The notes under the pieces are model-generated. The model worked only from the letters and a program-made list of their open reading frames with translations, was not told the origin of the DNA and ran no database searches. The position numbers and the translations under genes were made by a program. 64,000 nt of DNA from Polyangium jinanense (GTDB taxonomy: Bacteria > Myxococcota_A > Polyangia > Polyangiales > Polyangiaceae), in the NCBI RefSeq assembly GCF_028435265.1, contig NZ_JAGTJK010000012.1, positions 102,900-166,899 on the forward strand, in the 5' to 3' direction. This document shows, piece by piece, positions 29,521 to 60,300 of this stretch. The first letter of the stretch is position 1; every line of letters begins with the position of its first letter.

Positions 29521-29527
29521 GGGCGCG

Positions 29528-36094: not shown

Positions 36095-36114
36095 GCCGCG
36101 CGGAGGGTACGAAC

Positions 36115-37617: not shown

Positions 37618-37720
37618 CGGGCCTCGCGAATCGGTGTAGGGTACATCAGGATGTTGCCGTCCCGCGCTCGAAGGGAGCGCGCGGGCGGCGACGGTCGACG
37701 GGGACGCGGAGGATTGCACG

Positions 37721-38215: not shown

Positions 38216-38251
38216 CCCGAGGACGATTCGGCGTCCCAGGGGAACGACAGA

Positions 38252-44600: not shown

Positions 44601-45289
44601 TCTCGAAACCGGAACCAGGCGCCGATGTAGCGGCGGTGGCCGCCAAGGTACCGGATCCGGCTGCCAAGGTAGCGGCTCCGGCCGCCAAGGTAGAGGTGCC
44701 GGCCGCCAAGGTAGAGGCGCCGGCCGCCAAGGTAGAGGCGCCGGCCGCCAAGGTAGAGGCGCCGGCCGCCAAGGTAGAAATTCCGGGCGCCCCGAAAGCG
44801 GCGCCGGCCGCCAAGGTAGAAATTCCGGCCGCCCCGAAGGCGGCGCCGGCCGCCAAGGTAGACATTCCGGCTGCCAAGGTAGACGTTCCGGCTGCCAAGG
44901 CGGTGCCCGGCGTGCCGGAAGGCAAGGCTCCGGCGCCCCCAGGCAAAGCTGCGATGCCGGAAGGCAAACCGCAGGTGCCCGAAGGCGGCATGCCCGGGGT
45001 GCCAAAAACCGGCGAAAAGCCCGCCTTTCCTCCCGCCCCCGCGCCTCAGGCCCCCGCGCCTCCCGCTCCGGCGGACGTGGCCCCCTTCGCGCCCGCGCCG
45101 AAGCCGCCGGCCGCGCCCGCCGTCCCTGCCGGCGCGAAACCCGCGCCCGCCGCGCCCGCCGCCCCCGTGATCCCTGCCGGCGCGAAACCCGCGCCCGCCG
45201 CGCCCGCGCCGCCCGCCACGCCCGCGGCCAAGCCCGTCGTTCCCGCCGCCCCCGGCAGCAAATGGCCTGGCAGCGGCAACAAGCCTTGA
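41612..45289 (+). CDS. Uncharacterised 1225-aa helical-repeat protein with a Pro/Ala/Lys-rich tandem-repeat C-terminus, last gene of the T6SS core operon
   Basis: It starts 53 nt after tssG on the same strand. No signal peptide or TM helix is evident. The first ~870 aa are K/E/D/A/Q-rich amphipathic-helix-like sequence (for example KAEEQILKLNKALYETKNGISSGIDTAIKETEGQLKGITPELKKMGEDAIKTAKDKLDGLVDEVEGKLES). The last ~350 aa contain AVPDAKV, SAPDV(P/S)K and PAAKVE(A/V/I) heptad repeats and then an AP-rich tail. No enzymatic motif was recognised. Confidence 0.75.
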   Translation: MTTAEQSQGATESIPSKLGKFATEQIDKAEVTVTKGVSTVRDSTNQIISKAEEQILKLNKALYETKNGISSGIDTAIKETEGQLKGITPELKKMGEDAIKTAKDKLDGLVDEVEGKLESQKDSLVKTAQDQIRNAADQAKGKIDEIGQLGEDQAKKVLDAVKTQADTVDQKLGDLEGQIDGKIQAIGDDVRGKFEAALAKVPDHDGAKVEMSANVDAVVAELRSATKDSIEQARETLKSLVKQTDDTIMQTIGDVRRAIGEVPARINQCAQDILAKVNDAIQKTIDEISNLAHGLVARTAELLNQALLTITSTVDKLLADGFALVRGIKADLDRLLDKLLEQIRDLTLGTLEDVRKAANELLGTFEAECKKILQTMEESVIGSVEELGGKMNASIKALQADLNLDADKIVRDLVAEGAKGHDDALADFISAGYSEDTSVIPKIRAKGEAAIKQIEAKTKAQGEKLIKDFEMQATLLKPKIQAQGIKVVAQIAALGPKLAMQAVQIATSIASSIKDKGEAVKKTFEELQKTLVDAITKKIPDYLENCKKQIKAAADALVEAGKTFYEKTLADIMGAIKAAEARFKQLASEMKDLIETQVLALVASIRRTVETSIQRFKDLGAAFEEKTNALVNDIPARLIKLEQVARLAVEREITLAKGLANATKDDILLKARTTLSEIKKAAYGVLGGIRGDFGAVQGSLALIVPAGAGLDAAGAINLAVSGGLEGMIASAANAAQAAVTAGVNAAEAVNNAAEQAAAAMSAAGFDGAAKSLTDVLSQQMGEVRTEGEKAKNVIAAAKEKMTAVAKEATDTCTQAAQAAQAAAAEVVAAANSTGDAIKASAENLTKGLEKAKDIVKDAGKAAMQSMKEAQDVRKGGDGAQAGAGAQAKAGGADGAAAGADAGGADGLAVPEGEAAAPEGEAAAAPGGAEAAPDGAAAAPDVKAAAPDAKAAVPDAKVAVPDAKVAVPDAKVAAPDASKSAPDVPKSAPDVSKPELDVSKPEPGADVAAVAAKVPDPAAKVAAPAAKVEVPAAKVEAPAAKVEAPAAKVEAPAAKVEIPGAPKAAPAAKVEIPAAPKAAPAAKVDIPAAKVDVPAAKAVPGVPEGKAPAPPGKAAMPEGKPQVPEGGMPGVPKTGEKPAFPPAPAPQAPAPPAPADVAPFAPAPKPPAAPAVPAGAKPAPAAPAAPVIPAGAKPAPAAPAPPATPAAKPVVPAAPGSKWPGSGNKP
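44420..44900 (+). repeat. In-frame 21-bp tandem repeat blocks inside the 1225-aa gene
   Basis: Block 1 (~44420..44625) has units like gcggttccggatgccaaggtg and ggcgccggatgtcccgaaatc. Block 2 (~44655..44900) has units like ccggccgccaaggtagaggcg. Several adjacent units are identical. Confidence 0.85.
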
Positions 45290-45296: not shown

Positions 45297-45686
45297 TCAG
45301 GGCACCTGCACCGTGACCTGCCCGGGGAACGAGATCTGAATCACCCCGCCCCACATGCACATCAGCTTCGAGCTGTTGTTCAGCGCGGGCATGTTCGCGA
45401 GCAGCACCGTTGGGGCACCGACGATCCACGGCGCCGGCGTGTTCGGAATGCACGGCATTGGCGTGAGCACGCCCATCGCCGCCGCCGTCGCCGCGGCCAC
45501 CGTCGGGTTCGCCAGGCTCTGACACATCCCGAACGGCAGCACGTTCAGCATGGGCTTGCCGTCCATGATGTTCGCCAGCGGCCCCGCGCTGTTCATCGTC
45601 CGGTTCGCGGGAAGCACCGTGAGCGAGCTCGGCGCCACGCCGAAGCTGCATTGCATCATCGCCCCCATGCATACGTGCTGGCCCAT
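45297..45686 (-). CDS. DUF4280 (PAAR-like) spike-tip protein, stand-alone
   Basis: 129 aa. GAMMQCSFGVAPSSLTVLP...NVLPFGMCQSLANP...PCIPNTPAPWIVGAPTVLLANMPALNNSSKLMCMWGGVIQISFPGQ matches the DUF4280 pattern (C.FG...L.V...FG.C...C.P...W...C..GG.I.I...GQ). It is the last gene of the vgrG operon. Confidence 0.8.
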   Translation of the reverse strand: MGQHVCMGAMMQCSFGVAPSSLTVLPANRTMNSAGPLANIMDGKPMLNVLPFGMCQSLANPTVAAATAAAMGVLTPMPCIPNTPAPWIVGAPTVLLANMPALNNSSKLMCMWGGVIQISFPGQVTVQVP

Positions 45687-45688
45687 CG

Positions 45689-46441
45689 TCAGCCTCCCGC
45701 GAGCTTGTTCACGACCTTGTCGAAGAAGGACTCTTTTTTCTCCTCCTTCGCCTTCGGAATGCCCTTGTCGTCGTACTCGACCTCGCCGCGCTTCTCGCCG
45801 TCCTTGTACGTCGCCTTCGCCTTCAGCTTGCCCTGCACGTCGTAGCTGAACGCGTCGCCTTGCTTCTTGCCGTTGTCATAGATGGCGCGCTCGCGGACCT
45901 CGCCGTTCGGGAAGTACTCGATCACCTCCCCGTGCAGTTTGTCGGCCTTGTAGCTCGCTTTGCGCAGGGTGTTGCCCTTGCCGTCGAGGAACAAGGATTC
46001 CCCTTCGAGCTTGCCGTTCTTGTAGAACGACCGGACGACCTCGTTGCCCTGCTCGTCGAACGACATGAACGGGCCGTTCTGCTTGCCCTTCTCGAAATGC
46101 ATGAGCGTCCGGAGCCGGCCGTCGTCGTAGAGCCGCGTCGGCCCGTGCTGCTCGCCCTTCGCGAACGTGACGATCTGCGAGACCTTGCCGTTCTCGTCTA
46201 CGATCTTCGTCTCGCCGTGGAGCACGCCGTCCTGGAATGACGAACGCTCGACCTCGCGTCCTTCCGGATCGTACGTGATCGACAAACCGTGCAGCTTGCC
46301 GTTCTTGTAATTCGCCCGGTGCGCGATCTGCTTTTCGGTCTCCCCGTACTGGACGAACTCGCCGTGGAGCACGCCGTCTTCCATCTCGAACCGGGAGATC
46401 AGCTTGCCGTTCTCGTCGCGCTCTTCGTGGTCGGTCGGCAT
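45689..46441 (-). CDS. MORN-variant repeat protein (YwqK-family-like)
   Basis: 250 aa with ~9 repeats of the form Y.NGK.HG....Y...G (NYKNGKLHGLSITYDPEG, FQDGVLHGETKIVDENG, FYKNGKLEGESLFLDGKG, YKADKLHGEVIEYFPNG...) and a Lys-rich tail. It lies between vgrG and the DUF4280 gene with 10- and 2-nt spacers. Confidence 0.75.
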   Translation of the reverse strand: MPTDHEERDENGKLISRFEMEDGVLHGEFVQYGETEKQIAHRANYKNGKLHGLSITYDPEGREVERSSFQDGVLHGETKIVDENGKVSQIVTFAKGEQHGPTRLYDDGRLRTLMHFEKGKQNGPFMSFDEQGNEVVRSFYKNGKLEGESLFLDGKGNTLRKASYKADKLHGEVIEYFPNGEVRERAIYDNGKKQGDAFSYDVQGKLKAKATYKDGEKRGEVEYDDKGIPKAKEEKKESFFDKVVNKLAGG

Positions 46442-46451: not shown

Positions 46452-48452
46452 CTAATTGATCTTCACCATGCCGCCCTTCAAGGTCAGCATGCCGCCGCCC
46501 TCCACCGCCGCCTGCGCGCCGCCCTTCGCCTTCAGCGCGATCGCGCCCTCGAGCGTCATGTTCGTCCCGCCCTTGGCCTTGAAATCGGTGCCGGCCTTCA
46601 GGTCCATCGCCGTCCCGGACTCGGCCTTGAAATCCGTGCCCGCCTTCATCGAAAACGCCTGCTTGGCCTTGATCGTGACGCTCTTCGCCTCGATCACGAG
46701 GTCGCCGTCGACCTTGATCGTGTAGTTCTTCGTCACCTTGTAATCGAGGTTCGCCTTGTTCGTGTGCGCCTCGTCCTTGGTGACCGTGAGCGTGCGTTTG
46801 CCCTTCACGCTGTGCGTCTCGTCGCCCTTGTCGACCTTGATCGTGCGGTTGCCCTTGGTGACCGTGAGCGTCTCGTCGCCCTCCTCGATCGTCACCTTCC
46901 GCTCGTTTTTGACGTTCTTCGTGTAATCGTGGAGGACCTTGACCGTCCAGTCGTTCTCCACCTCGAAGAGCATGTCCTTCTGGGCGTGCGCGTAAAACTC
47001 CTCGTTATCCTTCTTGTCGTCGAAGCGCAGTTCGTTCCCCGCCTCGCCCTCCTTCGACGATCGGCTCAGGATCGTGCTCTTCGTCTGCGCGCCCGGCAGC
47101 CCATAAGGCACCGTCTGCTCGGCGTTGTACACCGAGCCCGTCACGAGCGGCCTGTCCGGGTCGCCGTCGATGAAGCTCACGACGACCTCCTGCCCGATGC
47201 GCGGCAAGAACCACGCGCCCCAGCTCTTGCCCGCCCACGCCTGCACGACGCGCACGAAGCACGAGCTCTTGTCGTCCTTCGCGCCCTTGCGATCCCAGTG
47301 GAACTGGACCTTGATGCGCCCGTATTCGTCGGTCCACTGCTCCTCGCCGCTCTTGCCCACGACGACGGCCGTCTGCGTGCCGGGGATCGCGGGCTTCGGC
47401 GTGATGCGCGGCGGGCGGTACGACGTCTTCTTCGGGAACGCCTCGAAGGTATTCGTGTACCCCTCCTGGCTTGCGCGGTGCATGATCGAGGTGAGAACCC
47501 AGTCCGTGTTCGCGTCGTCCCGATCGTGCTCGTCGAGCTTGAACGCGTGCCCCGCCGTGAAGGCGCGGCAGCTCGATGTACCCGACAAACGCACCGCCCG
47601 CGCCTCCTCGGCCTCGATGCGGAGCTTCGCGCGCGTGTCGCCCGGGCTTTTCTCGATGTGCCCGCCCGGGTACTCGAAGAGCTCGAGCTTGGCCGTTTCG
47701 CCCGAGACCTCCGCGAGCAGCGACGTGCTCGGCATCTCGAAGTTGTAATCCGTCGACGCGTACTTTCCCGCGACGATCTCCTCTTCGAGCGTGCACTCGA
47801 GGACGGCGTCCTCGTCCGTCGACGTGGAGAACTGCTCGACGAACCGCGCCTTGTCGAGGTTCGGGCACGGCGCGGCCGACGCGCTGTCGTCCGAGAGCAC
47901 CATCACGTGCTTGCCGTCCTCGTGCTTGAAATAATAATGGATCCCCTCGTCCTCCATGAGCCGCGACACGAAATCGAGCGCGGTCTCCTGGTACTGCACG
48001 CAGTAGGGGCGCGGGGTGTAGGAGCCCTTCAGCGAATCCTTGAAGTGCTCGCCCGACGAGAAGCCGAGCTCCTGGAAGAGCGCCTTCAGGATGTCGGGCA
48101 CGCTCTTCTCCTGGAAGATCCGGCAATCGCTGGTCTTGCCGAGCAGCCATAACCACGGGTGCAGCTCCGCGCGGTAACGCGTCTGCTTGCCGACGCGCCC
48201 CGCCTGGACGAACCGCGTGCAGATCCCGTGGATGAAGCGCGGCTTCTCCTTGGCCATGCCCCGGATCGTCAAGGTCACGCCCTTGCCGACGATCGCCTTG
48301 AAGTCGAGCGCCTTCTCCGGCGACAAAAGCTCGAGCTCGAAGCGGAAGAGCCCCGAGATCCGCTCTTCGCCATGCAGATCGACGAGCAGCACCGCGTCCG
48401 CGCCGAAGGGCGTCGAGATGGCGATGCCGAGGGTGCCCTGCGGATAAGGCAT
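46452..48452 (-). CDS. vgrG: T6SS spike protein VgrG (TssI), no C-terminal effector extension
   Basis: 666 aa. LLVDLHGEERISGLFRFELELLS..., YRAELHPWLWLLGKTSDCRIFQEKSVPDILKALF and RVVQAWAGKSWGAWFLPRIGQEVVVSFIDGDPDRPLVTGSVYN are followed by gp5-like beta-helix repeats (HSVKGKRTLTV.., DYKVTKNYTIKVDGDL..). Confidence 0.92.
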   Translation of the reverse strand: MPYPQGTLGIAISTPFGADAVLLVDLHGEERISGLFRFELELLSPEKALDFKAIVGKGVTLTIRGMAKEKPRFIHGICTRFVQAGRVGKQTRYRAELHPWLWLLGKTSDCRIFQEKSVPDILKALFQELGFSSGEHFKDSLKGSYTPRPYCVQYQETALDFVSRLMEDEGIHYYFKHEDGKHVMVLSDDSASAAPCPNLDKARFVEQFSTSTDEDAVLECTLEEEIVAGKYASTDYNFEMPSTSLLAEVSGETAKLELFEYPGGHIEKSPGDTRAKLRIEAEEARAVRLSGTSSCRAFTAGHAFKLDEHDRDDANTDWVLTSIMHRASQEGYTNTFEAFPKKTSYRPPRITPKPAIPGTQTAVVVGKSGEEQWTDEYGRIKVQFHWDRKGAKDDKSSCFVRVVQAWAGKSWGAWFLPRIGQEVVVSFIDGDPDRPLVTGSVYNAEQTVPYGLPGAQTKSTILSRSSKEGEAGNELRFDDKKDNEEFYAHAQKDMLFEVENDWTVKVLHDYTKNVKNERKVTIEEGDETLTVTKGNRTIKVDKGDETHSVKGKRTLTVTKDEAHTNKANLDYKVTKNYTIKVDGDLVIEAKSVTIKAKQAFSMKAGTDFKAESGTAMDLKAGTDFKAKGGTNMTLEGAIALKAKGGAQAAVEGGGMLTLKGGMVKIN

Positions 48453-48570: not shown

Positions 48571-49860
48571 ATGACGTTCTTCCGAACGGGCCATGGTCTC
48601 TTCCAGTTCGGGAGGCCGAAGCGCCTCGACAGGCACGGGATCCTCGCCTTTCTGCGCAGCGTCGCGACCGATCGTGGAGGCATGCTGGAGCTTCGGCGCA
48701 TCCTCGCCGACGAGCTGCATCGCACGTCGATCCACAACATGCGCGACGAGCTCGTGATCGAGCAGCTCGCGGACCGTTACCTGCGCGGCTCGCTCACGCT
48801 CGTCCACGTGCGCCCGCTCGACATCGGGATCGAGCTCGAGGGCTTCCTCGTCGAAGGCGCGGACGCCACGCCTTTGACCGGCCCGAAGAACGAGGCCGGC
48901 GACCTGCGCCCCGCGCCCGAGGTCCCACCCGAATATCCGGTCCTCGCGCGTGTCGAGTCCGATCAGATCATCGACTCCACGCTGAAGCTCGTCGCGAAAC
49001 TCGGCGATCTGCTCTTCGGGGCGTTTGGCCTGCAAAAACGTCCCTCGACGCTCGCGAAGGAGCTCGTGCTGCTCGCCGCCGAAGAGGCGAGCGGCGTGAA
49101 GCTCGCGAACACGAAGGTCGATCTCGATCTCGGGTTGCAACTGCATCCGCAGGGCAAGATCCTGCTGCCCGATCCGCAAGTGAAGGACGCGTACGTCGCC
49201 GCGGCGGCCGAGATCGCGGCGGGGCCGCGTCCGGCGGCAAAGGGTCTCATCGATTTGATGTGGCCGCTCACGCGGGTCGACACGAACCGCCGCTTCGACA
49301 ATCCCGTCGGGGCCGGGCCGGTGAAGAGCGATCAAAGCGACGGGAAGAAGGGCCCCGAGGCCGCGCTGGATTGGGTCGAAATCGAGCTCGTCGACGACGG
49401 CGATCCGCCGAAGCCCTACGCCGGCGCGCGGTATCGAATCGAGCTCGAGGGCGGCAAGGTGATCGAGGGGACGCTCGACGACGACGGCAAGGCGCGCGTC
49501 GATGGGATTCCGTCGGGCAGCGGGACCGTCACGTTCCCGGACATCGACGCCGGGTTTTGGGGGACGAACGGCGCAGGCAGCGCAGGCGCCGCCGCGCCGC
49601 CGCCTCCGTCTTCGTCGTCGTCCTCCGCGGTCTCCGCGGACGAGGCGTGGGTCGAGATCGAGCTCGTCGACGACGACGACCCGCCGAAGCCCCGCGCCGG
49701 CGCGCGATATCGTATCGAGCTCGAGGGCGGCAAGGTGGTCGAGGGGACGCTCGACGACCAAGGGAAAGCGCGCGTCGACGGGATTCCGTCGGGCAGCGGG
49801 ACCGTCACGTTCCCGGATATCGATGGCAGCACGTGGGGGCCGGGAGAACGAGGCACATGA
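48571..49860 (+). CDS. Hypothetical protein (~429 aa) with two copies of a ~59-aa beta-rich module; first gene of the putative effector operon divergent from vgrG
   Basis: The ATG at 48571 follows caggaagag and is in frame with track ORF 48451..49860, whose first 40 codons would overlap the vgrG start. No signal peptide. The C-terminal modules read WVEIELVDD(G/D)DPPKP.AGARYRIELEGGKV.EGTLDD.GKARVDGIPSGSGTVTFPDID. Confidence 0.65.
   Translation: MTFFRTGHGLFQFGRPKRLDRHGILAFLRSVATDRGGMLELRRILADELHRTSIHNMRDELVIEQLADRYLRGSLTLVHVRPLDIGIELEGFLVEGADATPLTGPKNEAGDLRPAPEVPPEYPVLARVESDQIIDSTLKLVAKLGDLLFGAFGLQKRPSTLAKELVLLAAEEASGVKLANTKVDLDLGLQLHPQGKILLPDPQVKDAYVAAAAEIAAGPRPAAKGLIDLMWPLTRVDTNRRFDNPVGAGPVKSDQSDGKKGPEAALDWVEIELVDDGDPPKPYAGARYRIELEGGKVIEGTLDDDGKARVDGIPSGSGTVTFPDIDAGFWGTNGAGSAGAAAPPPPSSSSSSAVSADEAWVEIELVDDDDPPKPRAGARYRIELEGGKVVEGTLDDQGKARVDGIPSGSGTVTFPDIDGSTWGPGERGT
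49372..49824 (+). repeat. Internal duplication: two 177-bp units (49372..49548 and 49648..49824) separated by a Ser/Pro/Ala linker
   Basis: The two units align colinearly without gaps, with most positions identical at the nucleotide level by eye. Confidence 0.85.
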
Positions 49861-50072
49861 GCGACGAAGTCCTTTACTCCGATCTCGGGATTCCCGAGTG
49901 GGATCCGGACCGCGAACCTGCGGCGGAGCCCGAGGCCGGCGCGTCCCCCCCGGGGCCGCCCGCGCAGGGCTCCATCGAGGATATGGGCGTGCGCTGCGTG
50001 GCGCGGTCGGCGGACGGGACACGAGCGGTGTGTACGCTCGAAGTGCTGCGGCCGTTTGTCCTGTCCGCTTGA
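49857..50072 (+). CDS. Small hypothetical protein (71 aa), start overlapping the upstream stop (ATGA)
   Basis: MSDEVLYSDLGIPEWDPDREPAAEPEAGASPPGPPAQGSIEDMGVRCVARSADGTRAVCTLEVLRPFVLSA. It is in frame within track ORF 49260..50072. The ATGA overlap suggests translational coupling. No family, signal peptide or TM was recognised. Confidence 0.4.
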   Translation: MSDEVLYSDLGIPEWDPDREPAAEPEAGASPPGPPAQGSIEDMGVRCVARSADGTRAVCTLEVLRPFVLSA

Positions 50073-50098
50073 GCTGACGACGCATCCTGGAGAACGCC

Positions 50099-53000
50099 AT
50101 GAGCAAGAAGATGCCGACGAAAGGGGTGCTCACGTTCGAGGCCGAGGGCAGCGACTCGAGCAGCTCGCCTTATTACTCGCGCGTGCTCCACCACCCGACG
50201 ATGGGGTCGGGCGTGACGATCGGCCGCGGCTACGACATGAAGGACCGTTCGTCCGCGGACGTCGAAAAAGATTTCGTCGCGGCGGGTCTGTCCGCGGATG
50301 TCGCGAAGAAGTATGCCAAAGGCGCGGGGCTCACGGGGTCCGAGGCGCGGACGTTCGTCACGAACAACAAGGGCGTCTTGCCCGAGCTCACGTGGGACCA
50401 GCAGCTCGCGCTCTTCGAGTCCACGTATGCGTGGCACGAGAAGGACGTCAAGCGCATCTGCGACAAGGAAGATTGTCAGAACATCTACGGCGTCGTGGAC
50501 TTCAAGACGCTCCACCCGCGCATCCTCGACGTGCTCGTGGATCTCAGGTTCCGCGGCGACTACACGCCCGCGTCGCGCAAGCGCATCCAGAAGCTCGTCG
50601 TCGAGAACGATTATGCGCGCTTCCGCGCGGACCTCTCCAATCGGTCGAACTGGAGCGCGGTGCCGGAGGACCGTTTCGATCGGCGGAGCAAGTACCTGAA
50701 GGACGCGCCGCAGACGGACGACACGGCCGATCACGAGGATGTGACGTACAGCACGCCGACCAAATCGTTTGACCTCAAGACGATGGGCGAGGCAGAGCTC
50801 TACGATCACCTCCGGAGCGTGTGGAAGGCGGAGCAGAAGGCGTTCGGCAACGAGGGCAAACCCGAATTCGACTTCCAGGACGAGGAGGGCCGCGTGAACC
50901 TGCTCGGCGCGCGCGGGTTCGACGCCGACCAGATGGTGCCCGTGCCGAGCACGAACACGAAATACGACGACACGCTTTTCCTCGTCTACAAGAAGGACGG
51001 CGCGAAGCACGTCGAGAAGTTCCACTACTCGAGCGAGTGGACGAGGACGGGCTCGAAGGGGGCCGTGATCATCCTCGGGCAGCACAAGTACTGCCTGGCG
51101 ATCCACAAGAAGCTCAAGGAAGACGGCACGCCCTACCCGTACAACAAGCTCCCCGCGTGGCGCGATTACTACAACACGAACAAGACGCAGCCGCCGGGAG
51201 CCGGTTACCGCGCATTGAACCCGGACCCGACGGTCGGCATCGTCCGCGTGCACGATGCAAGCGCGGCAGGATCCGTGGGCGCTGAGACCACGGGGGTCAC
51301 GCAGAACGCCTCGATCAACATCCATTACGGCGGCGAGGTGCCGAGCGGCTGGACGCCCAGCAAGGGGTGGTCCGACGGGTGCCAGGTCCTCATGCGCGGC
51401 GACCGGTACCTGCGGTTCATGGAGGTCATCGAGTCCGATCACTCCCTGAAGGGCACGATCAACAACGAGCTCGCGCCCAAGCCTTCGGCCGACGGGAAGC
51501 GGTCGCTCATCTACACGCTCGTCAAGGGCGACTCCCTCGCGCCGAGGGACGCGCCGTCCATGGGGTTCCCCGTGGACATCGGCAAAGGGAAGAAGATCGA
51601 CAATTCGACCACGCTCGCGATGTTCGAGCACACCGAGAAGACGATCGACAGCGGCTATTTCCCTCTCGGGACGAATACGACCTGGCACGGCGGCGCCCAT
51701 TTGCACGTCGCCGAGGGGACCGCGGTCCACGCGATGTTCGACGGGCGGATCGTCGCCGCGCGGCTGCCCGCGGCGGCGGACAAATCGAAGGGGGCCTTCG
51801 GCAGCAGGAACTTCATCCTGATCCGGCACGAGATCGACGGGGATCGCTTGAACAAGGCGAATGCCCTGCTCAAGCGCACCCTCATCGGGTACACGATCCG
51901 CGCCGAGACGCTCGTGCTCCGCAAGGAGCCGGGCAACGCCGCGGCCGTCGTCGATACCTTGAAGGTGGGCGACGAGGTGCTGCTGAAGACCGTCCCCCAT
52001 CCGAAGAAGGACGGCGTCTCGTGGGCGCACGTCGTCGTTTCCAAATCGGCGAAGGAAGGCCTGAAGGACAAGGTCGGCTATGTGGCCGCCACGTCCTTGC
52101 TCGTCACGCCCAGGTACGCGCCGCCGAAGGAGCGCGTGAAGCCGTCCGAGACGCGGGTGGTGTATTCGCTCTACATGCACCTCGGGCCCCAGGCGCTCGA
52201 CACGACGAACTCCGTCCTCGCCTCGATCCCCTGGGTCTCGGGGGCGCAGTGGAGCGTGTCGGACGACGTCCGGCTCCGCAGCGCGCCGGGCGTCCCGGAT
52301 CCGGACAAGACGCAGATCGGTACGCTCGTCTCCGGCGACACGTTCGTGCAGCTCACCCCCGACCTCGTGACCGCGGGGAGTTATCAGTGGATGAAGGTCC
52401 GCGTCACCAAGGCGAAAGACGCGAAGCTCGCGAACAAGGAGGGGTTCGTCGCGAAGCTCGACAAACGCATGAGCCTCACGAAGGCGCCGAGCGCGGAGAT
52501 CCTCGACAAGCTCAAGTCCGGCGACGTGGTCAAGCTCGACAAACCGGTGGTCGCGGGGGAGCAGATCTGGACGGCGGGCACGATGACGGGGGCCTCGGGT
52601 GGGGCGCAGGCGGGCATTCACTGGGAGGTCTTCTCGGAGCAGCCCCTCTTCCCGGACTGGCCGTCCGCCGACGATCCCGACGAAAATCTGAACATGGACG
52701 TGAAGAAGATTTTCGACATGATCGAGCAGGAGTTCTGGGGGTACAACGACACGATCTCCGCGTCCGAGCTGAACGATTTCTACAAGAACAATCCCAAGGC
52801 GAAATCGCTGCGATACTACGCGTGCCGGTTCATGAGCGAGTGGGGCTGCGACATCGACAAGGCCGTCGCGCAGATCCAATCGAGGGGGCTCTACAGCGTC
52901 TCGGGGCTCGCCGACAAGATGCGGCCCTACCTGTGGTGGAAGGAGGCGGAGGGCAAGAAGGTGGAGCTGCCGAAGAGCCCGATCGTCTGGCACTACAACC

Positions 53001-53986
53001 CGATCGGGTTCGTCTACGCGATGACCAAGATCGAGGAGACCCCCGCCCCGCGCACCGAGCCGGCGCAGACGAAGGAGGATCCGAAGGTCGCCACGGAGAC
53101 GCAATGGTCCGGCGTCGCGTACGGCGATTACGTGCTGAAGAAGGGCGACGACGACGGCAAGCAGACCTGGGGCGGCCTCGCGCGCAAGGAGAAGGGCACA
53201 TACGTGGTCGAGCTGCAGAAGGATCTGCTCGAGCTCGGCTACTGGATCAGCGCCGCGAGCTCGAACAAGGGGATGAACGCCGACGGCAATTTCGGCGGCA
53301 CGGTGCGCGGCGCCGTCATGCTCTTCCAGCGCGAGCACGGGTTGAAGGAGACGGGGGAGGTCGACGCGGCGACGGCGAAGCTCATCAAGGAAAAGACGAA
53401 GGTAGCGAACTACGAGCGGCCCGGGCACAAGGCGGGCGATTACGGTCAGTTTTATCAGCTCCCGCCTTCGGAGAACTACGAGCGGTACGACGAGGTGCGC
53501 GACGACAATTGCATCCCGAAGGACAACTGGGGCACGAAGGAGATGATCAAGATGCTCACCTCCGCGGGCAAGGCCTGGAAGGAGCAAGGAAAGTCGCTGT
53601 TCCTGGTCGGGGACGTCTCGCTCTACAACGGTGGCAAGATGGACCCGCACAAGTCCCACCAGGACGGCACCGGCGTGGACCTCGACTCCGATGAGCTGTG
53701 CAGCATCAACCGGGCGACGTTCAAGAAAGAGGAGTCCCTGTCGCTCACGCAGCTGCTCATCAAGCACGGCGCGAAGCGCGTCCTCTTCAATTGCAAGTAC
53801 GTGACCGACCAGGTGCCCGAGGCGTTCGCGTTATCGGGGCACCACCACCATTACCACGTCGACGTGAAGCCGGGGCTGAAGACGAACGAGCACCCCGAGG
53901 AGGAGTGCAAGTGGTGCCACAAGTCGGTGTACAAGAAGTGCGACTACGCCAAGAAGGCGAAGCGCTCGGACTCGGAGCTCACCTGA
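50099..53986 (+). CDS. Multi-domain peptidoglycan-hydrolase protein (1295 aa), candidate T6SS antibacterial effector
   Basis: No signal peptide. Modules read by eye, in order:
- A lysozyme/pesticin-like N-terminus (FEAEG...GVTIGRGYD, ~50100-50700).
- A region with INIHYGG...WSDGCQV (~50900-51500), reminiscent of the YkuD-fold H...(S)xGC active site.
- An M23/LytM-like domain split by two SH3b-like inserts (WHGGAHLHVAEGTAVHAMFDGRIV, FILIRHEIDG, YSLYMHLGP, AGIHWEVF; ~51660-52650).
- PG_binding_1 (VVELQKDLLELGYW...DGNFGGTVRGAVMLFQREHGLKETGEVD, ~53190).
- A MepA/LAS-type metallopeptidase (DPHKSHQDGTGVDLD ... GHHHHYHVD, ~53500-53900). Confidence 0.8.
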   Translation: MSKKMPTKGVLTFEAEGSDSSSSPYYSRVLHHPTMGSGVTIGRGYDMKDRSSADVEKDFVAAGLSADVAKKYAKGAGLTGSEARTFVTNNKGVLPELTWDQQLALFESTYAWHEKDVKRICDKEDCQNIYGVVDFKTLHPRILDVLVDLRFRGDYTPASRKRIQKLVVENDYARFRADLSNRSNWSAVPEDRFDRRSKYLKDAPQTDDTADHEDVTYSTPTKSFDLKTMGEAELYDHLRSVWKAEQKAFGNEGKPEFDFQDEEGRVNLLGARGFDADQMVPVPSTNTKYDDTLFLVYKKDGAKHVEKFHYSSEWTRTGSKGAVIILGQHKYCLAIHKKLKEDGTPYPYNKLPAWRDYYNTNKTQPPGAGYRALNPDPTVGIVRVHDASAAGSVGAETTGVTQNASINIHYGGEVPSGWTPSKGWSDGCQVLMRGDRYLRFMEVIESDHSLKGTINNELAPKPSADGKRSLIYTLVKGDSLAPRDAPSMGFPVDIGKGKKIDNSTTLAMFEHTEKTIDSGYFPLGTNTTWHGGAHLHVAEGTAVHAMFDGRIVAARLPAAADKSKGAFGSRNFILIRHEIDGDRLNKANALLKRTLIGYTIRAETLVLRKEPGNAAAVVDTLKVGDEVLLKTVPHPKKDGVSWAHVVVSKSAKEGLKDKVGYVAATSLLVTPRYAPPKERVKPSETRVVYSLYMHLGPQALDTTNSVLASIPWVSGAQWSVSDDVRLRSAPGVPDPDKTQIGTLVSGDTFVQLTPDLVTAGSYQWMKVRVTKAKDAKLANKEGFVAKLDKRMSLTKAPSAEILDKLKSGDVVKLDKPVVAGEQIWTAGTMTGASGGAQAGIHWEVFSEQPLFPDWPSADDPDENLNMDVKKIFDMIEQEFWGYNDTISASELNDFYKNNPKAKSLRYYACRFMSEWGCDIDKAVAQIQSRGLYSVSGLADKMRPYLWWKEAEGKKVELPKSPIVWHYNPIGFVYAMTKIEETPAPRTEPAQTKEDPKVATETQWSGVAYGDYVLKKGDDDGKQTWGGLARKEKGTYVVELQKDLLELGYWISAASSNKGMNADGNFGGTVRGAVMLFQREHGLKETGEVDAATAKLIKEKTKVANYERPGHKAGDYGQFYQLPPSENYERYDEVRDDNCIPKDNWGTKEMIKMLTSAGKAWKEQGKSLFLVGDVSLYNGGKMDPHKSHQDGTGVDLDSDELCSINRATFKKEESLSLTQLLIKHGAKRVLFNCKYVTDQVPEAFALSGHHHHYHVDVKPGLKTNEHPEEECKWCHKSVYKKCDYAKKAKRSDSELT

Positions 53987-53990: not shown

Positions 53991-54665
53991 CTAGAGCCCG
54001 TACACCTTCGCGAGCGCCTTCTGCGTCGTCGCGTCGTACTTGCCCGTCACGGAGATCTTTTCGGCGCGCTGGAAGGCCTCGATCGCCGCGGTCGTCGCCT
54101 CGTCGAGCGTGCCGCTCGGCTCGTCGGCATGAAGCCCGAGGTTCTTGAGGCGCGTTTGCGCCCCGCGGATCGTGTCGATCGGCTCGAGCTCGCCGAGCGC
54201 GAGCTTGTACGTTTGTCGCCGGTTCGGCAGCTTCAGCACCGCCTCGGCCTGATCCGCCGGCACCTCGGCTTCCAGTGTCCCGTCGTCCCCTGTCGTCCCC
54301 TCGAGCTTGCGCTCGCCGCACTCGATCTCCCAGGGCTCGTTCGCGAGCGGCTCCTGGCCCGCGGTGAGCTTCAGGTAGACCCGGACCTTTTCGCGCTTGA
54401 CCACGAACCTGTGCGACTTGCCCGTCTCGATCGGCGACGGCTTCGGCTTCGGCTGCGGCACCGTCACCTTGTCGCCCGGCGCGAGCACGTTCGGATCCTT
54501 GCGCAGCTTGCGCAGCGCCGCGTTCTCCGGCGCCTCCCATACCGTCTTCCACGGAAGACCGTATTTCGCCGCGATCGTCGCGATGCACTCCCCCGCCTGG
54601 ACGTCGTGTGTCGTGCCTGCCATGGCGATTCCCAGGCGATGATACACGTCGCGCTGTCCGATCAC
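53991..54665 (-). CDS. LysM plus PG_binding_1 peptidoglycan-binding protein with a central beta-rich module
   Basis: The LysM domain reads THDVQAGECIATIAAKYGLPWKTVWEAPENAALRKLRKDPNVLAPGDKVTVP. The C-terminal IRGAQTRLKNLGLHADEPSGTLDEATTAAIEAFQRAEKISVTGKYD is PG_binding_1-like. A GTG at 54665 overlaps the upstream stop (GTGA); an alternative ATG is at 54623. No signal peptide. Confidence 0.75.
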   Translation of the reverse strand: MIGQRDVYHRLGIAMAGTTHDVQAGECIATIAAKYGLPWKTVWEAPENAALRKLRKDPNVLAPGDKVTVPQPKPKPSPIETGKSHRFVVKREKVRVYLKLTAGQEPLANEPWEIECGERKLEGTTGDDGTLEAEVPADQAEAVLKLPNRRQTYKLALGELEPIDTIRGAQTRLKNLGLHADEPSGTLDEATTAAIEAFQRAEKISVTGKYDATTQKALAKVYGL

Positions 54666-57346: not shown

Positions 57347-60300
57347 ATGACGCGGCGGACCGGGTACTCCTTGCTGGGGCTCTTGATGGCGGCGATGACC
57401 ATCCTGAGCTGCACCACGATCCTCGGCATTGATACCGAGAGCGACGAGAACCCGTGCAGCGCCGGGGACCTGCCGCCGCTCGAGTGCGGCGTCGGCGCCT
57501 GCCGCACGATCCGGCCCGCGTGCGTGAACGGCCTGCCGATGACCTGTCCGCCCGTCGACTCCCAGGCCGACGAGATCTGCGACGGCATCGACAACAACTG
57601 CGACGGGCTCATCGACGAGGGGTGTCCCTGCATGGAAGGGGCGGTCCAGAGTTGTTATAGCGGCGCGCCCCTCACCCGGAACGTCGGTATCTGCGTCACC
57701 GGCATCCAGACCTGCACGAACGGCATCTGGCTCGATTGCACCGGCGAGGTGCTACCGGGCCTCGAGAACTGCGACGACAGCTTCGACAACGATTGCAACG
57801 GCAAGGTCAACGACAACTGCGCCTGCACCGAGGGGCAGACCCGCAAGTGTTACGGCGGCCCGCCGATCACGCAGGGCGTCGCGAACTGCAAGGAAGGTGA
57901 TCAGACCTGCCTGAACGGCTTCTGGGGCGACTGCAAGGCGGACGTCATCCCCGGCGGCGAGGTCTGCGACGGCGTCGACAACAACTGCGATGGCGCCATC
58001 GACGAGATTTCCGGCTGCGAGTGCTCCGGGGATCAGACGAAGGAGTGTTACACGGGCGACGACAAGTTCGTCGGCATCGGCGTCTGCAAGAAGGGGTATT
58101 ACCCCTGCAAGGGCGGCAAGTTCGACGAGACGAAGTGCCTGACCGAGGTGCTCCCCGGCGCCGAGGTCTGCAATGGCCTCGACGACGATTGCAACGGCCT
58201 GCCCGACGACGCGATGGGCCTCGGCCTCGATTGCACGACGAAGCTGCCCGGCATCTGCAAGTTCGGCAAGACGGATTGCGGCATCGACGAGGAGACGGGC
58301 AAGCCGGGCACGATCTGCACGCCCGACGTCAAGCCCTTCCAGAACCCCGAGCAGGGCTGCAACCTGGTCGACGACAACTGCGACGGCGTCATCGACGAGG
58401 GCGTCCTCTGCTGCCCGGAAGACGGCATTCAGAACGGCAGCGAGACCGACGTCAACTGCGGCGGCACCTGCGTGATCAAGTGCCCCGACGGCAAGAAGTG
58501 CAACACGGGCGACGACTGCGTCTCGCAGGTCTGCGTGAGCGGCATCTGCGTCGGCGACACGTGCGACGACGCGACGGAGAACGGCACGGAGACGGACGTC
58601 GATTGCGGCGGCTCCGCCTGCCCCGGCTGCCAGCCCACGAAGAACTGCGAGTACGGGTCCGACTGCCTCTCGAACGTGTGCGTCGGCGGCAAGTGCCAGG
58701 CGCCGACCTGCTTCGACGGCGTGGAGAACGGTAACGAGAGCGACAAGGACTGCGGCGACGCCTGCAAGCCTCTGCTCTGCGTCAACCTCCAGAATTGCAA
58801 CAGCGCGCTCGATTGCGTGAGCCTCTCCTGCAAGGACAAGGTCTGCCAGGCGGCGACCTGCGGCGACACCACGAAGAACGGCAGCGAGACGGACATCGAT
58901 TGCGGCGGTGGCCAGTGCCAGGGCTGCGGCACGGGGCAGGGCTGCAACGTCGGCGCCGATTGCAAGGAGAAGGTCTGCGGGGCGAACAAGACGTGCCTCG
59001 CGCCGACGTGCACCGACAGCGCGGCGAACGGGCAGGAGACGGACGTCAACTGCGGCGGCCCCGACTGCGTCGCCCGCTGCGACACGGGCCAGAAGTGCCT
59101 CGTGGCGACCGACTGCCAGAGCAAGATCTGCACGAACAACATCTGCGCCCCCTCGCAGTGCACGGACTTCGTGCAGAACGGGACCGAGACGGACGTCGAT
59201 TGCGGCGGCGGTTGTCCGGAGAAATGCGACCCGTCCGAGAAGTGCAAGACCAACGTCGACTGCAAGAGCGACGTCTGCACGGGCGGCATCTGCCTTTCGC
59301 CGACCTGCTCGGACAACAAGAAGAACGGCGCCGAGACGGACCTCGACTGCGGCGGCCCGTGCGTGCAGGAGCAGAAGAAGTGCTCGGACGGCAAGCAGTG
59401 CCAGTTCGCCGGCGACTGCCAGAGCGGCGTCTGCACGGGCGGCATCTGCGTGCCCGCGCAGTGCAACGATCAAACGAAGAACGGCAACGAGACGGACATC
59501 GACTGCGGCGGCGGCCTGCCCTGCCAGGCCTGTGACATCGGCAAGAATTGCCTGAACGCCATCGACTGCAAGACGAACATCTGCTCGGCCGGCAAGTGCG
59601 CGCCGAAGCCGATCGGCGAGTTCTGCCTCTCGGCGCTCGAGTGCGCGAGCGGCAACTGCGTCGACGGGTTCTGCTGCAACAGCTCCTGCGACGGCACCTG
59701 CTTCGCGTGCTCGGCCGCCAAGAAAGGCCAGGGCAACAACGGCTTCTGCCAGGCGATCGTCGGCAACGCCGATCCGGACAACGAGTGCGCGTCGGACAAC
59801 CCGAGCAGCTGCGGCAACACGGGCTTCTGCAACGGCGCCGGGGCGTGCGCGAAATACAGCAATAGCGTCGAGTGCGTGGTGGCGACGTGCAAGGACATCA
59901 CGACGGCGAAGCTGCCGCAGTTCTGCAACGGCAACGGCGCGTGCCTGACGAGCGCCGAGCAGTCGTGCGTGCCGTACACGTGCAGCGCCGGCCAGTGCAA
60001 CACGAGCTGCGCGATCGACGCGCAATGCGCGGGCGGGTACTACTGCAACAATAGCCAGTGCATTCCGAAGGGCACCATCAGTTCGTCGTGCCAGACGAAC
60101 AACCAGTGCGCGAGCGGCAACTGCGTCGACGGCGTCTGCTGCGACTCGGCCTGCACGGGCACCTGCTACGCGTGCTCGGCGGGCAAGAAGGGCCAGGGTA
60201 GCGACGGCATCTGCGGGCCGGTCGTGAACAACGGAGACCCCGACAACGAGTGCGCGACGACGTCGATCGCGAGCTGCGGGACGACGGGCGTCTGCGACGG

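What the first reader, a model, noticed from the sequence alone, without database searches (positions are those of the whole stretch)
50099..53986. Signal-less 1295-aa protein stacking three to four different cell-wall-cleaving modules: candidate T6SS mega-effector
It lies 1.6 kb from vgrG in the divergent operon and has no signal peptide. By eye it combines these modules:
- A lysozyme/pesticin-like N-terminal domain (E...G(V)TIGRGYD).
- A module with IH-x18-SDGC spacing, like YkuD-fold L,D-transpeptidase/carboxypeptidase sites.
- An M23/LytM-like domain interrupted by two SH3b-like inserts.
- A PG_binding_1 domain.
- A MepA/LAS-type metallo-endopeptidase (HKSHQDGTGVDLD ... HYHVD).

The M23-like module has non-canonical putative metal ligands: HGGAH where HxxxD is expected, and IHWE where HxH is expected.

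Known T6SS peptidoglycan effectors are usually single-domain. A protein that could cut glycan strands, cross-links and stem peptides at once would be an unusual predatory or competitive weapon. It is also large for a VgrG-loaded cargo.
Basis: partly seen in the sequence, partly recalled or inferred. Interest (0 to 1): 0.7.

Follow-up and report, generated by a model that had tools for sequence, protein, structure and literature searches.

The report
WHIX-type multi-enzyme T6SS cell-wall effector
This gene encodes a real 1295-residue toxin that strings three different cell-wall-cutting enzymes around a "WHIX" module, the handle used to load toxins onto the type VI secretion spike. It belongs to an effector class described in 2025, and this exact protein is already listed in that study's data files.

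Summary
The ORF (50099..53986, +, 1295 aa) is real and is identical to Polyangium jinanense WP_272421927.1.
- a pesticin/T4-lysozyme-fold muramidase (aa 1-204)
- a YkuD-fold Cys/His domain (aa 217-490)
- an M23/LytM-fold core split by two SH3b-like inserts (aa ~498-985)
- PG_binding_1 (aa 1033-1095)
- a MepA-like LAS metallopeptidase (aa ~1141-1257)

The decisive addition is that the "odd M23" with HGGAH is the WHIX domain (motif WHxxxH). WHIX is the T6SS secretion and VgrG-loading domain of the "double-blade" peptidoglycan effectors (Fridman et al., PLoS Biol 2025). A profile comparison with the founding WHIX effector gives 99% probability (E 2e-18). This accession also appears in that paper's supplementary tree and N-terminal-extension file.

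The gene sits in a complete-looking T6SS cluster, 1.6 kb from vgrG. The same slot beside the same VgrG is occupied by polymorphic relatives in five other Polyangium-like loci.

It is therefore a correct reading of an already catalogued class. It is an extreme example, with three flanking enzyme "blades" plus WHIX. Two points are not covered in the paper's text: the YkuD-fold blade family, and the absence of flanking genes with signal peptides that could encode immunity proteins.

The parts
50099..53986 (+). Effector gene, 1295 aa, no signal peptide (Polyangium jinanense WP_272421927.1)
50099..50710 (+). Blade 1 (aa 1-204): pesticin/T4-lysozyme-fold muramidase. Conserved E16 (FEAEG), T40 and D46 (GVTIGRGYD).
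50747..51568 (+). Blade 2 (aa 217-490): YkuD-fold (L,D-transpeptidase/carboxypeptidase-like) Cys/His domain. H409 and C428 lie in INIH...WSDGCQV.
51590..53053 (+). WHIX domain (aa ~498-985): an M23/LytM-fold core in three pieces, two SH3b-like inserts and a C-terminal helical subdomain.
51683..51700 (+). WHxxxH motif (W529-H530-G-G-A-H534), the name-giving WHIX signature. It occupies the place of the M23 HxxxD motif.
   Evidence: motif definition in PMC12135965
51881..52138 (+). SH3b-like insert 1 (aa ~595-680), lying between 'LIRHE' and 'YSLYMHL'.
52232..52498 (+). SH3b-like insert 2 (aa ~712-800).
   Evidence: All-beta block in model 2. The sequence pattern DVRLRSAPG...GTLVSGD...WMKVRV...GFVA parallels insert 1 (read directly from the sequence). 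No Pfam hit of its own.
52700..53053 (+). Helical subdomain of WHIX region 2 (aa ~868-985). Conserved LRxxACxFxSEW, WW and WHYNP.
53195..53383 (+). PG_binding_1 domain (aa 1033-1095).
   Evidence: Pfam E 4.3e-12, 46.5 bits against a 23-bit cut-off
53519..53869 (+). Blade 3 (aa ~1141-1257): MepA-like LAS zinc peptidase. H1184, H1187-x6-D1194, H1251-x-H1253, D1255.
   Evidence: Pfam Peptidase_M74 31.4 bits, above the 25-bit cut-off. A four-sequence profile gives MepA 1tzp as the top PDB hit (E 0.014) and aligns the HxSHQxGxxVD motif. All listed His/Asp residues are invariant. The AlphaFold model of this part is poor.
53870..53983 (+). Cys-containing C-terminal tail (aa 1258-1295; C1270, C1273 and C1281 are invariant in 4 homologues).
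49857..50072 (+). Small acidic ORF (71 aa) directly upstream. Its start overlaps the stop codon of the preceding gene. It has no signal peptide. Its conserved C-terminal ~35 aa is also found directly upstream of the effector in 4 related loci.
48571..49860 (+). Conserved ~429-aa protein (probable start at M41 of the 469-aa ORF). It carries one or two C-terminal beta-sandwich repeats, has no signal peptide, and always lies between the effector and vgrG.
46452..48452 (-). VgrG spike protein (666 aa), divergent from the effector operon.
   Evidence: Pfam Phage_GPD E 3.5e-97. TIGR03361 609.7 bits. 84-96% identical VgrG lies next to the homologous effectors.
45297..46441 (-). MORN-repeat protein (45689..46441) and DUF4280/PAAR-like protein (45297..45686), both downstream of vgrG.
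53991..54623 (-). Convergent LysM + beta-sandwich + PG_binding_1 protein (210 aa from M15). No signal peptide. A conserved neighbour of the effector cassette.
28174..41558 (+). T6SS core genes tssK, tssL, tssM, tssA, tssB, tssC, hcp, tssE, tssF and tssG.

Best explanation
The gene encodes a WHIX-class (subclass II, 'double-blade' type) type VI secretion cargo effector of Polyangium jinanense that attacks the prey cell wall.

**Delivery.**
- The protein is made in the cytoplasm without a signal peptide (shown).
- Its central WHIX module (aa ~498-985) is an M23/LytM-fold domain with the family motif WHxxxH, two SH3b-like inserts and a helical subdomain (shown).
- By homology with Awe1 and TseP, WHIX docks the protein onto the neighbouring VgrG spike (inferred).
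- Sheath contraction then delivers the protein into the periplasm of a neighbouring Gram-negative cell (inferred).

**Action in the periplasm (all inferred from fold and conserved catalytic residues).** Three flanking enzymes act on different peptidoglycan bonds:
- A pesticin/T4-lysozyme-like muramidase (E16/T40/D46) cuts the glycan strand.
- A YkuD-fold Cys/His enzyme (H409/C428) acts on the L,D bond of the stem peptide. It could work as a carboxypeptidase, as an endopeptidase, or by D-amino-acid exchange as Tlde1 does.
- A MepA-like LAS zinc endopeptidase (H1187/D1194/H1253) cuts peptide cross-links.

PG_binding_1 and the SH3b inserts would hold the protein on the sacculus. WHIX itself keeps three invariant His residues in the M23 metal site. 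By analogy with the reported Zn-dependent amidase activity of TseP-N, it may add a fourth activity (speculative).
For: **WHIX identity**
- WHGGAH lies at aa 529-534.
- Profile comparison with the founding WHIX effector Va01435 covers both WHIX regions: probability 99.0, E 2.3e-18. Pairwise BLASTP gives E 8e-7.
- WP_272421927.1 appears in the WHIX paper's Fig 1B tree file and in the CLANS file of subclass II N-terminal extensions.
- The family-wide signature is conserved.

**T6SS context**
- tssA-G, tssK-M, hcp, vgrG and a DUF4280 PAAR-like gene are all in the window.
- In five other Polyangium-like loci, polymorphic homologues sit beside an 84-96% identical VgrG.

**Folds**
- PG_binding_1 and Peptidase_M74 score above the Pfam cut-offs. 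MepA is the top PDB profile hit and the metal motif aligns.

**Catalytic residues**
- H409 and C428 are invariant in 73 sequences.
- The LAS His/Asp residues are invariant in 4 sequences.
- E16 aligns with the FDAEG glutamate of the Aeromonas WHIX-lysozyme homologue P0040.

**Modularity typical of polymorphic toxins**
- Relatives swap the C-terminal blade for M15_3, VanY, SLT, Amidase_2, NlpC/P60 or CHAP domains.

**Published function of WHIX**
- WHIX is sufficient for T6SS secretion and binds the VgrG C-terminal tail (PMC12135965).
- TseP-N binds VgrG2 and has Zn-dependent amidase activity (PMC11893102).
Against: - Nothing here is experimental for this protein. Secretion, VgrG binding and all enzyme activities are inferred.
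- No flanking gene has a signal peptide. The WHIX paper reports that the vast majority of flanking genes encode signal-peptide proteins, which are the presumed immunity proteins.
- The LAS domain and PG_binding_1 were modelled with low confidence. The M74 match covers only profile positions 31-109 of 240.
- The YkuD-like domain has D426 where classical L,D-transpeptidases have His in the (S/T)HGC motif. It also has no sequence-profile match to YkuD.
- VgrG here ends in a plain beta-helix sequence (...LKGGMVKIN). A dedicated C-terminal tail like the one Awe1 uses on VgrG4 was not demonstrated.
- No clpV/tssH or tssJ was identified in the window.
Confidence: 0.85

Rival explanations
1. It is the same protein and the same delivery route, but the WHIX module is only a loading handle with no catalysis. 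The protein would then have three enzymatic blades, not four.
For: [quoted passage not shown]
- The position equivalent to the first His of the M23 HxH motif is never His in 66 homologues. The Asp of the M23 HxxxD motif is always His.
Against: - TseP-N, which Fridman et al. cite as WHIX-containing, released stem peptides from peptidoglycan. This was Zn-dependent and was lost in His-to-Ala mutants.
- H530, H534, H577, H694, H841 and E843 are 94-100% conserved. That is more conservation than a pure scaffold needs.
Confidence: 0.45
2. It is not a T6SS cargo. It would be a predatory or autolytic cell-wall hydrolase released another way (outer-membrane vesicles, lysis, or another contractile injection system), and it merely happens to lie near the T6SS genes.
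For: - Myxobacteria export many lytic enzymes.
- The pesticin-like module also occurs in proteins carrying an eCIS-associated domain (PF13699) in Bacteroidota.
- No adjacent signal-peptide (immunity-type) gene was found.
Against: - More than 98% of genomes with WHIX proteins have a T6SS, and WHIX suffices for T6SS secretion.
- The gene holds a conserved slot next to VgrG/MORN/DUF4280 in 6 loci, including this window.
- It has no signal peptide.
Confidence: 0.07
3. One or more of the flanking 'blades' is a catalytically dead binding module. For example, the YkuD-like domain with SDGC instead of SHGC, or the LAS domain, might only bind peptidoglycan.
For: - D426 replaces the motif His of classical L,D-transpeptidases. 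This position is variable across the family.
- The LAS model has low confidence.
Against: - The nucleophile Cys428 and His409 are invariant across 73 sequences, as are R272 and D291.
- All LAS metal and catalytic residues are invariant, and the motif matches MepA residue for residue.
Confidence: 0.15

Closest known systems
WHIX 'double-blade' T6SS effectors, subclass II (e.g. Awe1 of Aeromonas jandaei; Fridman et al., PLoS Biol 2025, PMC12135965)
   Same: - Central bipartite WHIX domain with the WHxxxH motif.
- Peptidoglycan-targeting domains fused on both sides.
- Gene next to vgrG in a T6SS-positive genome.
- This accession is in their dataset.
   Different: - The N-terminal extension holds two separate enzyme domains (lysozyme plus YkuD-fold) rather than one. 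With the C-terminal LAS peptidase this makes three blades.
- There is an extra SH3b insert inside WHIX region 1.
- No flanking signal-peptide immunity genes.
- The host is a myxobacterium, whereas the paper's text names Enterobacterales, Burkholderiales, Pseudomonadales and Aeromonadales as examples.
TseP of Aeromonas dhakensis (Wang et al., eLife 2025, PMC11893102)
   Same: - An N-terminal Zn-binding, M23-like (3SLU-like) domain that binds VgrG, plus a pesticin-type lysozyme domain.
- Aeromonas homologues with the same architecture (P0040, P0042) match both our WHIX region 1 and our lysozyme module at 40-41% identity.
   Different: - The domain order is reversed: the lysozyme is C-terminal in TseP and N-terminal here.
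- TseP has two activities and one immunity protein (TsiP).
- I did not hold the TseP sequence, so residue-level mapping was not done.
Tlde1 / Tlde1a of Salmonella Typhimurium (T6SS L,D-transpeptidase-fold effector, PMC9638812)
   Same: A T6SS-delivered YkuD-fold Cys/His enzyme with the motif H-x(14-17)-(S/T)-x-G-C. It provides the mechanistic precedent for L,D-carboxypeptidase activity and D-amino-acid exchange.
   Different: - The motif here is SDGC, not SHGC.
- Here the domain is a module of 274 aa inside a WHIX protein, not a stand-alone effector.
Pesticin C-terminal domain and VgrG3 lysozyme-like domains
   Different: There is no FyuA-binding or translocation domain. The Pfam Pesticin score is below its cut-off.
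MepA (Peptidase_M74, LAS metallopeptidases)
   Same: The H-x-S-H-Q-x-G-x-x-V-D and H-x-H motifs align with E. coli MepA 1tzp. The Pfam score is above its cut-off.
   Different: - Only about 120 aa of core are matched.
- There is no signal peptide.
- It is preceded by PG_binding_1 and followed by a Cys-containing tail.
M23/LytM peptidases and degenerate LytM factors (LytM, ShyA, EnvC, NlpD)
   Different: - The Asp ligand is replaced by His.
- The first His of HxH is replaced by a hydrophobic residue in all 66 homologues.
- The domain is split by SH3b inserts and extended by a helical subdomain.
- Its documented role is T6SS loading.

Membership tests
WHIX domain T6SS effectors (PMC12135965) | Conserved WHxxxH motif in region 1 | tested here: met
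   W529-H530-G-G-A-H534. W and H530 are each kept in 65/66 homologues and H534 in 66/66.
WHIX domain T6SS effectors (PMC12135965) | Homology to both parts of the bipartite domain of the founding member WP_005373349.1 (aa 31-126 and 271-476) | tested here: met
   hhalign of the 66-sequence profile against Va01435 aa 1-452: probability 99.0, E 2.3e-18, 286 columns, Va 27-393. BLASTP E 8e-7 for region 1. Va residues 453-476 were not available.
WHIX domain T6SS effectors (PMC12135965) | Passes the authors' own detection (RPS-BLAST E<=1e-6, >=70% coverage) | tested here: met
   WP_272421927.1 and WP_272459081.1 occur in the Fig 1B tree file and in the S3 CLANS file of N-terminal extensions.
WHIX domain T6SS effectors (PMC12135965) | Encoded in a T6SS-positive genome, often next to VgrG/PAAR | tested here: met
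   T6SS core genes, vgrG and a DUF4280 gene are in the window. Conserved synteny in 5 related loci.
WHIX domain T6SS effectors (PMC12135965) | Subclass II: N-terminal extension >99 aa and a C-terminal extension, both peptidoglycan-targeting | tested here: met
   The N-terminal extension is ~497 aa (lysozyme plus YkuD fold). The C-terminal extension is ~310 aa (PG_binding_1 plus LAS).
WHIX domain T6SS effectors (PMC12135965) | Flanking genes encode signal-peptide (immunity) proteins (true of 'the vast majority', not a strict criterion) | tested here: not met
   None of the four flanking products has a signal-peptide-like N-terminus. These are the 71-aa protein, the 429-aa protein, the LysM-PGB protein and the MORN protein. 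Maximum 10-aa hydropathy is 1.7. This was a heuristic check, not SignalP.
WHIX domain T6SS effectors (PMC12135965) | T6SS-dependent secretion and binding of WHIX to the VgrG C-terminus | not testable with these tools
   Needs secretion and pull-down assays, or a complex structure prediction.
Pesticin C-terminal / GH24-like lysozymes (PF16754) | Profile match above the Pfam gathering score | tested here: not met
   18.9-20.6 bits against a cut-off of 25.8. Close homologues do carry PF16754.
Pesticin C-terminal / GH24-like lysozymes (PF16754) | T4-lysozyme-like fold with the catalytic Glu | tested here: met
   [not shown]
YkuD / L,D-transpeptidase fold (PF03734) | Sequence-profile match | tested here: not met
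   No YkuD hit at E<=1 in Pfam and none at E<=0.01 in NCBIfam.
YkuD / L,D-transpeptidase fold (PF03734) | YkuD beta-sandwich fold | tested here: met
   [not shown]
YkuD / L,D-transpeptidase fold (PF03734) | Catalytic motif H-x(14-17)-(S/T)-H-G-C | tested here: inconclusive
   H409-x15-S425-D426-G427-C428. H, S, G and C are conserved (100/93/100/100%), but the motif His is Asp or variable. Motif as stated in PMC9638812.
Peptidase M23 (PF01551) | HxxxD and HxH zinc/catalytic motifs and a profile match above the cut-off | tested here: not met
   17.6-20.5 bits against a cut-off of 28.7. The motifs are HxxxH and (L/F/M/G)xH across the family. The fold itself is M23.
PG_binding_1 (PF01471) | Profile match above the cut-off | tested here: met
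   46.5 bits against 23, aa 1033-1095.
LAS metallopeptidases / Peptidase_M74 (MepA) | Profile match above the cut-off, plus H-x6-D and H-x-H motifs | tested here: met
   31.4 bits against 25. H1187-x6-D1194 and H1251-x-H1253 are invariant and align to MepA 1tzp. The fold was not confirmed because the model confidence is low.

The most novel reading that the evidence does not exclude
This protein may represent an undescribed 'multi-blade' tier of WHIX effectors in Polyangiaceae.

- It would carry three independent toxin domains plus a catalytically competent WHIX module, giving up to four different peptidoglycan bond specificities in one polypeptide.
- One blade is a YkuD-fold toxin family that is almost exclusive to WHIX proteins. 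H409 and C428 are invariant in the 73 aligned members. The family is not named in the WHIX paper.
- Such effectors may be handled without classical periplasmic immunity genes. Instead they may use a conserved cytoplasmic 71-aa acidic partner and a 429-aa beta-sandwich protein as a new kind of chaperone, plug or inhibitor.
Probability: 0.3. Interest if true: 0.55.

Novelty: already known. Interest (0 to 1): 0.33.

Why it matters
- The locus shows how far the WHIX chassis can be loaded. One VgrG-borne cargo would bring a muramidase, an L,D-peptidase-type enzyme, a cross-link endopeptidase and perhaps an amidase into the prey periplasm in a single shot. That should make resistance by a single immunity protein or a single cell-wall modification difficult.
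- It extends WHIX effectors to predatory myxobacteria.
- It points to a compact YkuD-fold toxin family and to conserved accessory genes without signal peptides, both of which have not been studied.
- For enzyme engineering, the individual blades and the PG-binding and SH3b modules are candidate lytic parts.
- As a discovery it is incremental. The class, its motif and this accession were published in 2025.

Tried and rejected
- **Single-sequence searches of the PDB** with the whole protein, aa 1-204 and aa 1113-1295 gave only noise. The natural HHHHYH run matched His-tags of unrelated entries.
- **A profile that included full-length P0006** (A3) was dominated by that protein's other domains and missed MepA. 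A trimmed alignment (A4) fixed this.
- **The look-up of encoding contigs for the protein itself** found nothing on record.
- **The search for related loci:** the 66-sequence alignment was too divergent to seed. The single-protein scan of GTDB genomes returned only one locus, Polyangium sp. 6x1.
- **The third homologue search**, on the LAS domain, found only two extra fragments.
- **Mapping the published TseP residues** (H19, H23, H109, H339, H359, E539) onto the Aeromonas homologue P0040 failed. The numbering does not correspond, apart from an E at position 663, so no residue-level equivalence with TseP is claimed.
- **Pfam and NCBIfam** contain no WHIX model. They give nothing for the YkuD-like module, the helical subdomain, the 71-aa ORF or the 429-aa protein.
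- **A second WHIX protein in the window** was considered and rejected. There is only one WH[GS]GxH match in six frames.
- **The long antisense ORF** 49874..53767 was rejected as a gene on codon-position GC.

Full report
**1. The observation**

In this 64-75% GC window long ORFs occur by chance. The antisense strand carries a 1297-aa ORF over the same stretch. Only the + frame has the codon-position signature of a real gene, with GC3 0.92 and GC2 0.42.

The product is 100% identical to NCBI WP_272421927.1/MDC3956759.1, annotated 'penicillin-insensitive murein endopeptidase [Polyangium jinanense]'. The N-terminus (MSKKMPTKGVLTFEAEG...) has no hydrophobic core. The best 10-residue hydropathy mean in the first 45 aa is 0.56.

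**2. The surroundings**

The window holds a T6SS cluster on the + strand: tssK, tssL, tssM, tssA, tssB, tssC, hcp, tssE, tssF and tssG. A 1225-aa coiled-coil protein follows. On the - strand lie a DUF4280 (PAAR-like) gene, a MORN-repeat gene and vgrG (46452..48452).

Divergent from vgrG runs a three-gene + strand unit:
- a conserved ~429-aa protein (48571..49860);
- a 71-aa acidic ORF whose start overlaps the preceding stop codon (49857..50072);
- the effector, whose start is 1647 bp from the vgrG start.

A LysM/PG_binding_1 protein and a methyltransferase converge from the other side.

**3. Domain anatomy**

Pfam gives two hits above threshold: PG_binding_1 (aa 1033-1095, E 4e-12) and Peptidase_M74 (aa 1141-1216, 31.4 bits against a cut-off of 25).

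BLAST against the homologues shows four independently mobile blocks:
- aa 1-203
- aa ~223-487
- aa ~490-1000
- aa ~1030-1295

I predicted the structure in two halves.

- Second domain, a series of YkuD-fold enzymes:

The secondary-structure map shows the M23 sheet in three pieces: aa ~527-580, ~685-695 and ~811-846. These are separated by two all-beta SH3b-like blocks (aa ~595-680 and ~712-800) and followed by a helical subdomain (aa ~868-985).

*C-terminal enzyme.* I built a four-sequence profile. Its best PDB match is E. coli MepA (1tzp, E 0.014). The alignment pairs GDxSLxxGGxxxPHxSHQDGTGVD with MepA's [25 protein letters not shown], and HHHHFHVD with MepA's HRAHMHV. H1184, H1187, D1194, H1251, H1253 and D1255 are invariant in this profile. 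From memory of the MepA literature, H-x6-D plus H-x-H is the LAS zinc site. I did not verify the MepA residue numbers here.

**4. What the 'odd M23' is**

A literature search led to two 2025 papers.

Fridman et al. (PMC12135965) define WHIX as follows:
- It is a bipartite T6SS secretion domain named after a conserved WHxxxH motif.
- It is sufficient for T6SS secretion.
- It is proposed to cap the C-terminal tail of VgrG.
- It is flanked on one side (subclass I) or both sides (subclass II, 'double-blade') by peptidoglycan-targeting toxin domains.

I tested membership in three ways.

- **Direct comparison with the founder.** I transcribed residues 1-452 of the founding effector (V. alginolyticus Va01435 / WP_005373349.1) from the authors' AlphaFold file.
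  - BLASTP aligns Va 5-100 with our aa 490-578 (E 8e-7), and the YTLYMHLAP segment with our YSLYMHLGP.
  - hhalign of my 66-sequence profile against Va01435 gives probability 99.0 and E 2.3e-18. It covers 286 columns, Va residues 27-393, spanning both WHIX regions.
- **The authors' own dataset.** WP_272421927.1 and its 1292-aa allele WP_272459081.1 are present in the paper's supplementary tree and in the CLANS file of subclass II N-terminal extensions. The stored extension ends at ...DSLAPRDAPSMG, roughly aa 497.
- **Family-wide signature.**
  - In the 66 homologues, W529, H530, H577 and H694 are each kept in 65. H534 and H841 are kept in all 66. E843 is kept in 62.
  - The position matching the first His of the M23 HxH motif (aa 839) is L/F/M/G and never His.

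The non-canonical ligands are therefore the WHIX signature, not degeneration in this one protein.

The second paper (PMC11893102) reports the following for the N-terminal domain of the Aeromonas effector TseP:
- It is cited by Fridman et al. as a secreted WHIX protein.
- It binds VgrG2 and restores T6SS assembly.
- It is a Zn-dependent amidase, and it was superposed on the M23 structure 3SLU.

Whether WHIX is only a handle or also an enzyme is thus unsettled in the literature. I keep both readings.

**5. The YkuD-like blade**

An exhaustive HMMER search of 1.84 billion cluster representatives found only 67 relatives at E<=1e-3. In an alignment of 73 members, H409, G427, C428, R272 and D291 are invariant. 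S425 is kept in 93% and Q429 in 96%.

Most members have a shorter H-to-C spacing, because this protein has a 5-residue insertion. That fits the H-x(14-17)-(S/T)-x-G-C pattern of L,D-transpeptidases and of the T6SS effector Tlde1a. The motif His before Gly-Cys is Asp here and is variable across the family.

Of the 83 proteins in hand that carry this module, 64 also carry WHIX, usually directly downstream. Most of the remaining 19 are short and may be fragments. The main text and tables of the WHIX paper do not mention YkuD or an L,D-transpeptidase-type blade. This appears to be a WHIX-associated toxin family that has not been named.

No sequence profile in Pfam or NCBIfam detects it.

**6. Polymorphism and synteny**

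Relatives in Polyangium, Byssovorax and other Myxococcota, and in some other phyla, keep the WHIX core. They exchange the flanking domains for M15_3, VanY, SLT, Amidase_2, Peptidase_C39-like, NlpC/P60, CHAP and others. The lysozyme - YkuD-like - WHIX order recurs in at least 13 distinct proteins besides this one and its two near-identical variants.

Five related loci (L001-L005) show the same neighbourhood:
- methyltransferase;
- LysM/PG_binding_1 protein;
- small acidic ORF;
- effector;
- the 330-470-aa protein on the opposite strand;
- VgrG (84-96% identical);
- MORN protein;
- DUF4280 protein.

L004 (P. spumosum) lacks the LysM/PG_binding_1 gene and the small ORF. This is the pattern of a polymorphic cargo slot beside a fixed spike. 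In the window, the small ORF plus effector are inverted relative to the other loci.

**7. Mechanism**

*Shown:* the sequence, the folds, the conserved catalytic residues, the WHIX homology and the T6SS context.

*Inferred by homology:* WHIX loads the protein on VgrG, and contraction delivers it to the prey periplasm. There the following would act:
- The muramidase cuts glycan strands.
- The YkuD-fold enzyme attacks the mDAP-D-Ala (L,D) bond, 3-3 links or Lpp links, or exchanges D-amino acids as Tlde1 does.
- The MepA-like LAS enzyme cuts D-Ala-mDAP cross-links.
- PG_binding_1 and the SH3b inserts provide anchoring.

*Speculative:* WHIX adds an amidase activity as reported for TseP-N. My own inference is that the 'deep cavity' said to hold the VgrG tail is the M23 substrate groove.

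**8. What does not fit**

The WHIX paper reports that the vast majority of flanking genes encode signal-peptide proteins, the presumed immunity proteins. Here none of the four flanking products has a signal-peptide-like N-terminus. The related loci look the same.

The conserved 71-aa and 429-aa proteins have no family assignment. Their role is open; they could be chaperones, adaptors, inhibitors or co-cargo.

The LAS and PG_binding_1 parts were not modelled with confidence. No clpV or tssJ was recognised in the window.

**9. Verdict**

The object belongs to a class published in March 2025, and this accession is already in that class's dataset. No later paper in the library treats myxobacterial WHIX effectors.

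Novelty is therefore low ('already known' as to kind and membership). The residual interest lies in three points:
- the three-blade architecture;
- the unnamed YkuD-fold blade family;
- the missing immunity genes.

Interest 0.33.

Noticed in passing
window 49857..50072 (+); L001 7695..7973, L003 7684..7974, L005 ~7106..7231: A small acidic ORF (71 aa here, 92-96 aa elsewhere) has a conserved C-terminal ~35 aa (...GVRxVxRSAxGTxxVxTxEVLxPFxLS). It always lies directly upstream of the WHIX effector and here overlaps the stop codon of the preceding gene. It has no signal peptide and no family match. It could be a chaperone, plug or inhibitor.
   Followed up: partly
window 48571..49860 (+): A conserved ~429-aa protein lies between vgrG and the effector in all six loci (two paralogues in L005). 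Its C-terminus carries one or two ~60-aa beta-sandwich repeats (WVEIELVDD..PPKP..ARYRIELEGGKV.EGTLDD.GKARVDGIPSGSGTVTFPDID). There are only faint MalQ_N and CarboxypepD_reg hits. The listed 469-aa ORF probably starts at its Met41.
   Followed up: partly
window 49857..53986 compared with L001-L003 and L005: The small-ORF-plus-effector cassette is inverted in this genome relative to its orientation in the four related loci that carry both genes. The flanking vgrG, ~429-aa protein, LysM/PGB and methyltransferase genes keep their order.
   Followed up: partly
window 53991..54623 (-): A LysM + beta-sandwich + PG_binding_1 protein without a signal peptide is a conserved neighbour of the effector slot (57-70% identity in four loci). 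A cytoplasmically made peptidoglycan binder next to a T6SS spike might be co-secreted.
   Followed up: partly
window 57347..63625 (+): A 2092-aa ORF with MopE-type metal-binding Cys motifs (PF11617, E 5e-13) has 1980-2187-aa counterparts in L001-L004. The many short high-GC3 ORFs on the opposite strand there are probably artefacts.
   Followed up: partly
window 41612..45289 (+): A 1225-aa coiled-coil protein (apolipoprotein-like low-complexity hits only) sits at the end of the tssA-G operon, where no clpV/tssH was found. No clpV or tssJ was recognised anywhere in the window.
   Followed up: no
window 49874..53767 (-): A 1297-aa antisense ORF shadows the effector gene. It is a high-GC artefact and fails the GC3/GC2 test.
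   Followed up: yes
window 53840..53857 (aa 1248-1253) and 53906..53941 (aa 1270-1281): A natural HHHHYH run overlaps the LAS HxH motif and attracts spurious matches to His-tagged PDB entries. Downstream, an invariant CxxC...C tail (C1270, C1273, C1281) follows the LAS domain in all four homologues. It could be a disulfide or a metal site.
   Followed up: partly
homologues P0030-P0034 and P0037: The same pesticin-like module is fused to PF13699 (DUF4157, an 'eCIS core domain') in Sporocytophaga and related proteins. This suggests the blade is shared between T6SS and extracellular contractile injection system cargo.
   Followed up: no
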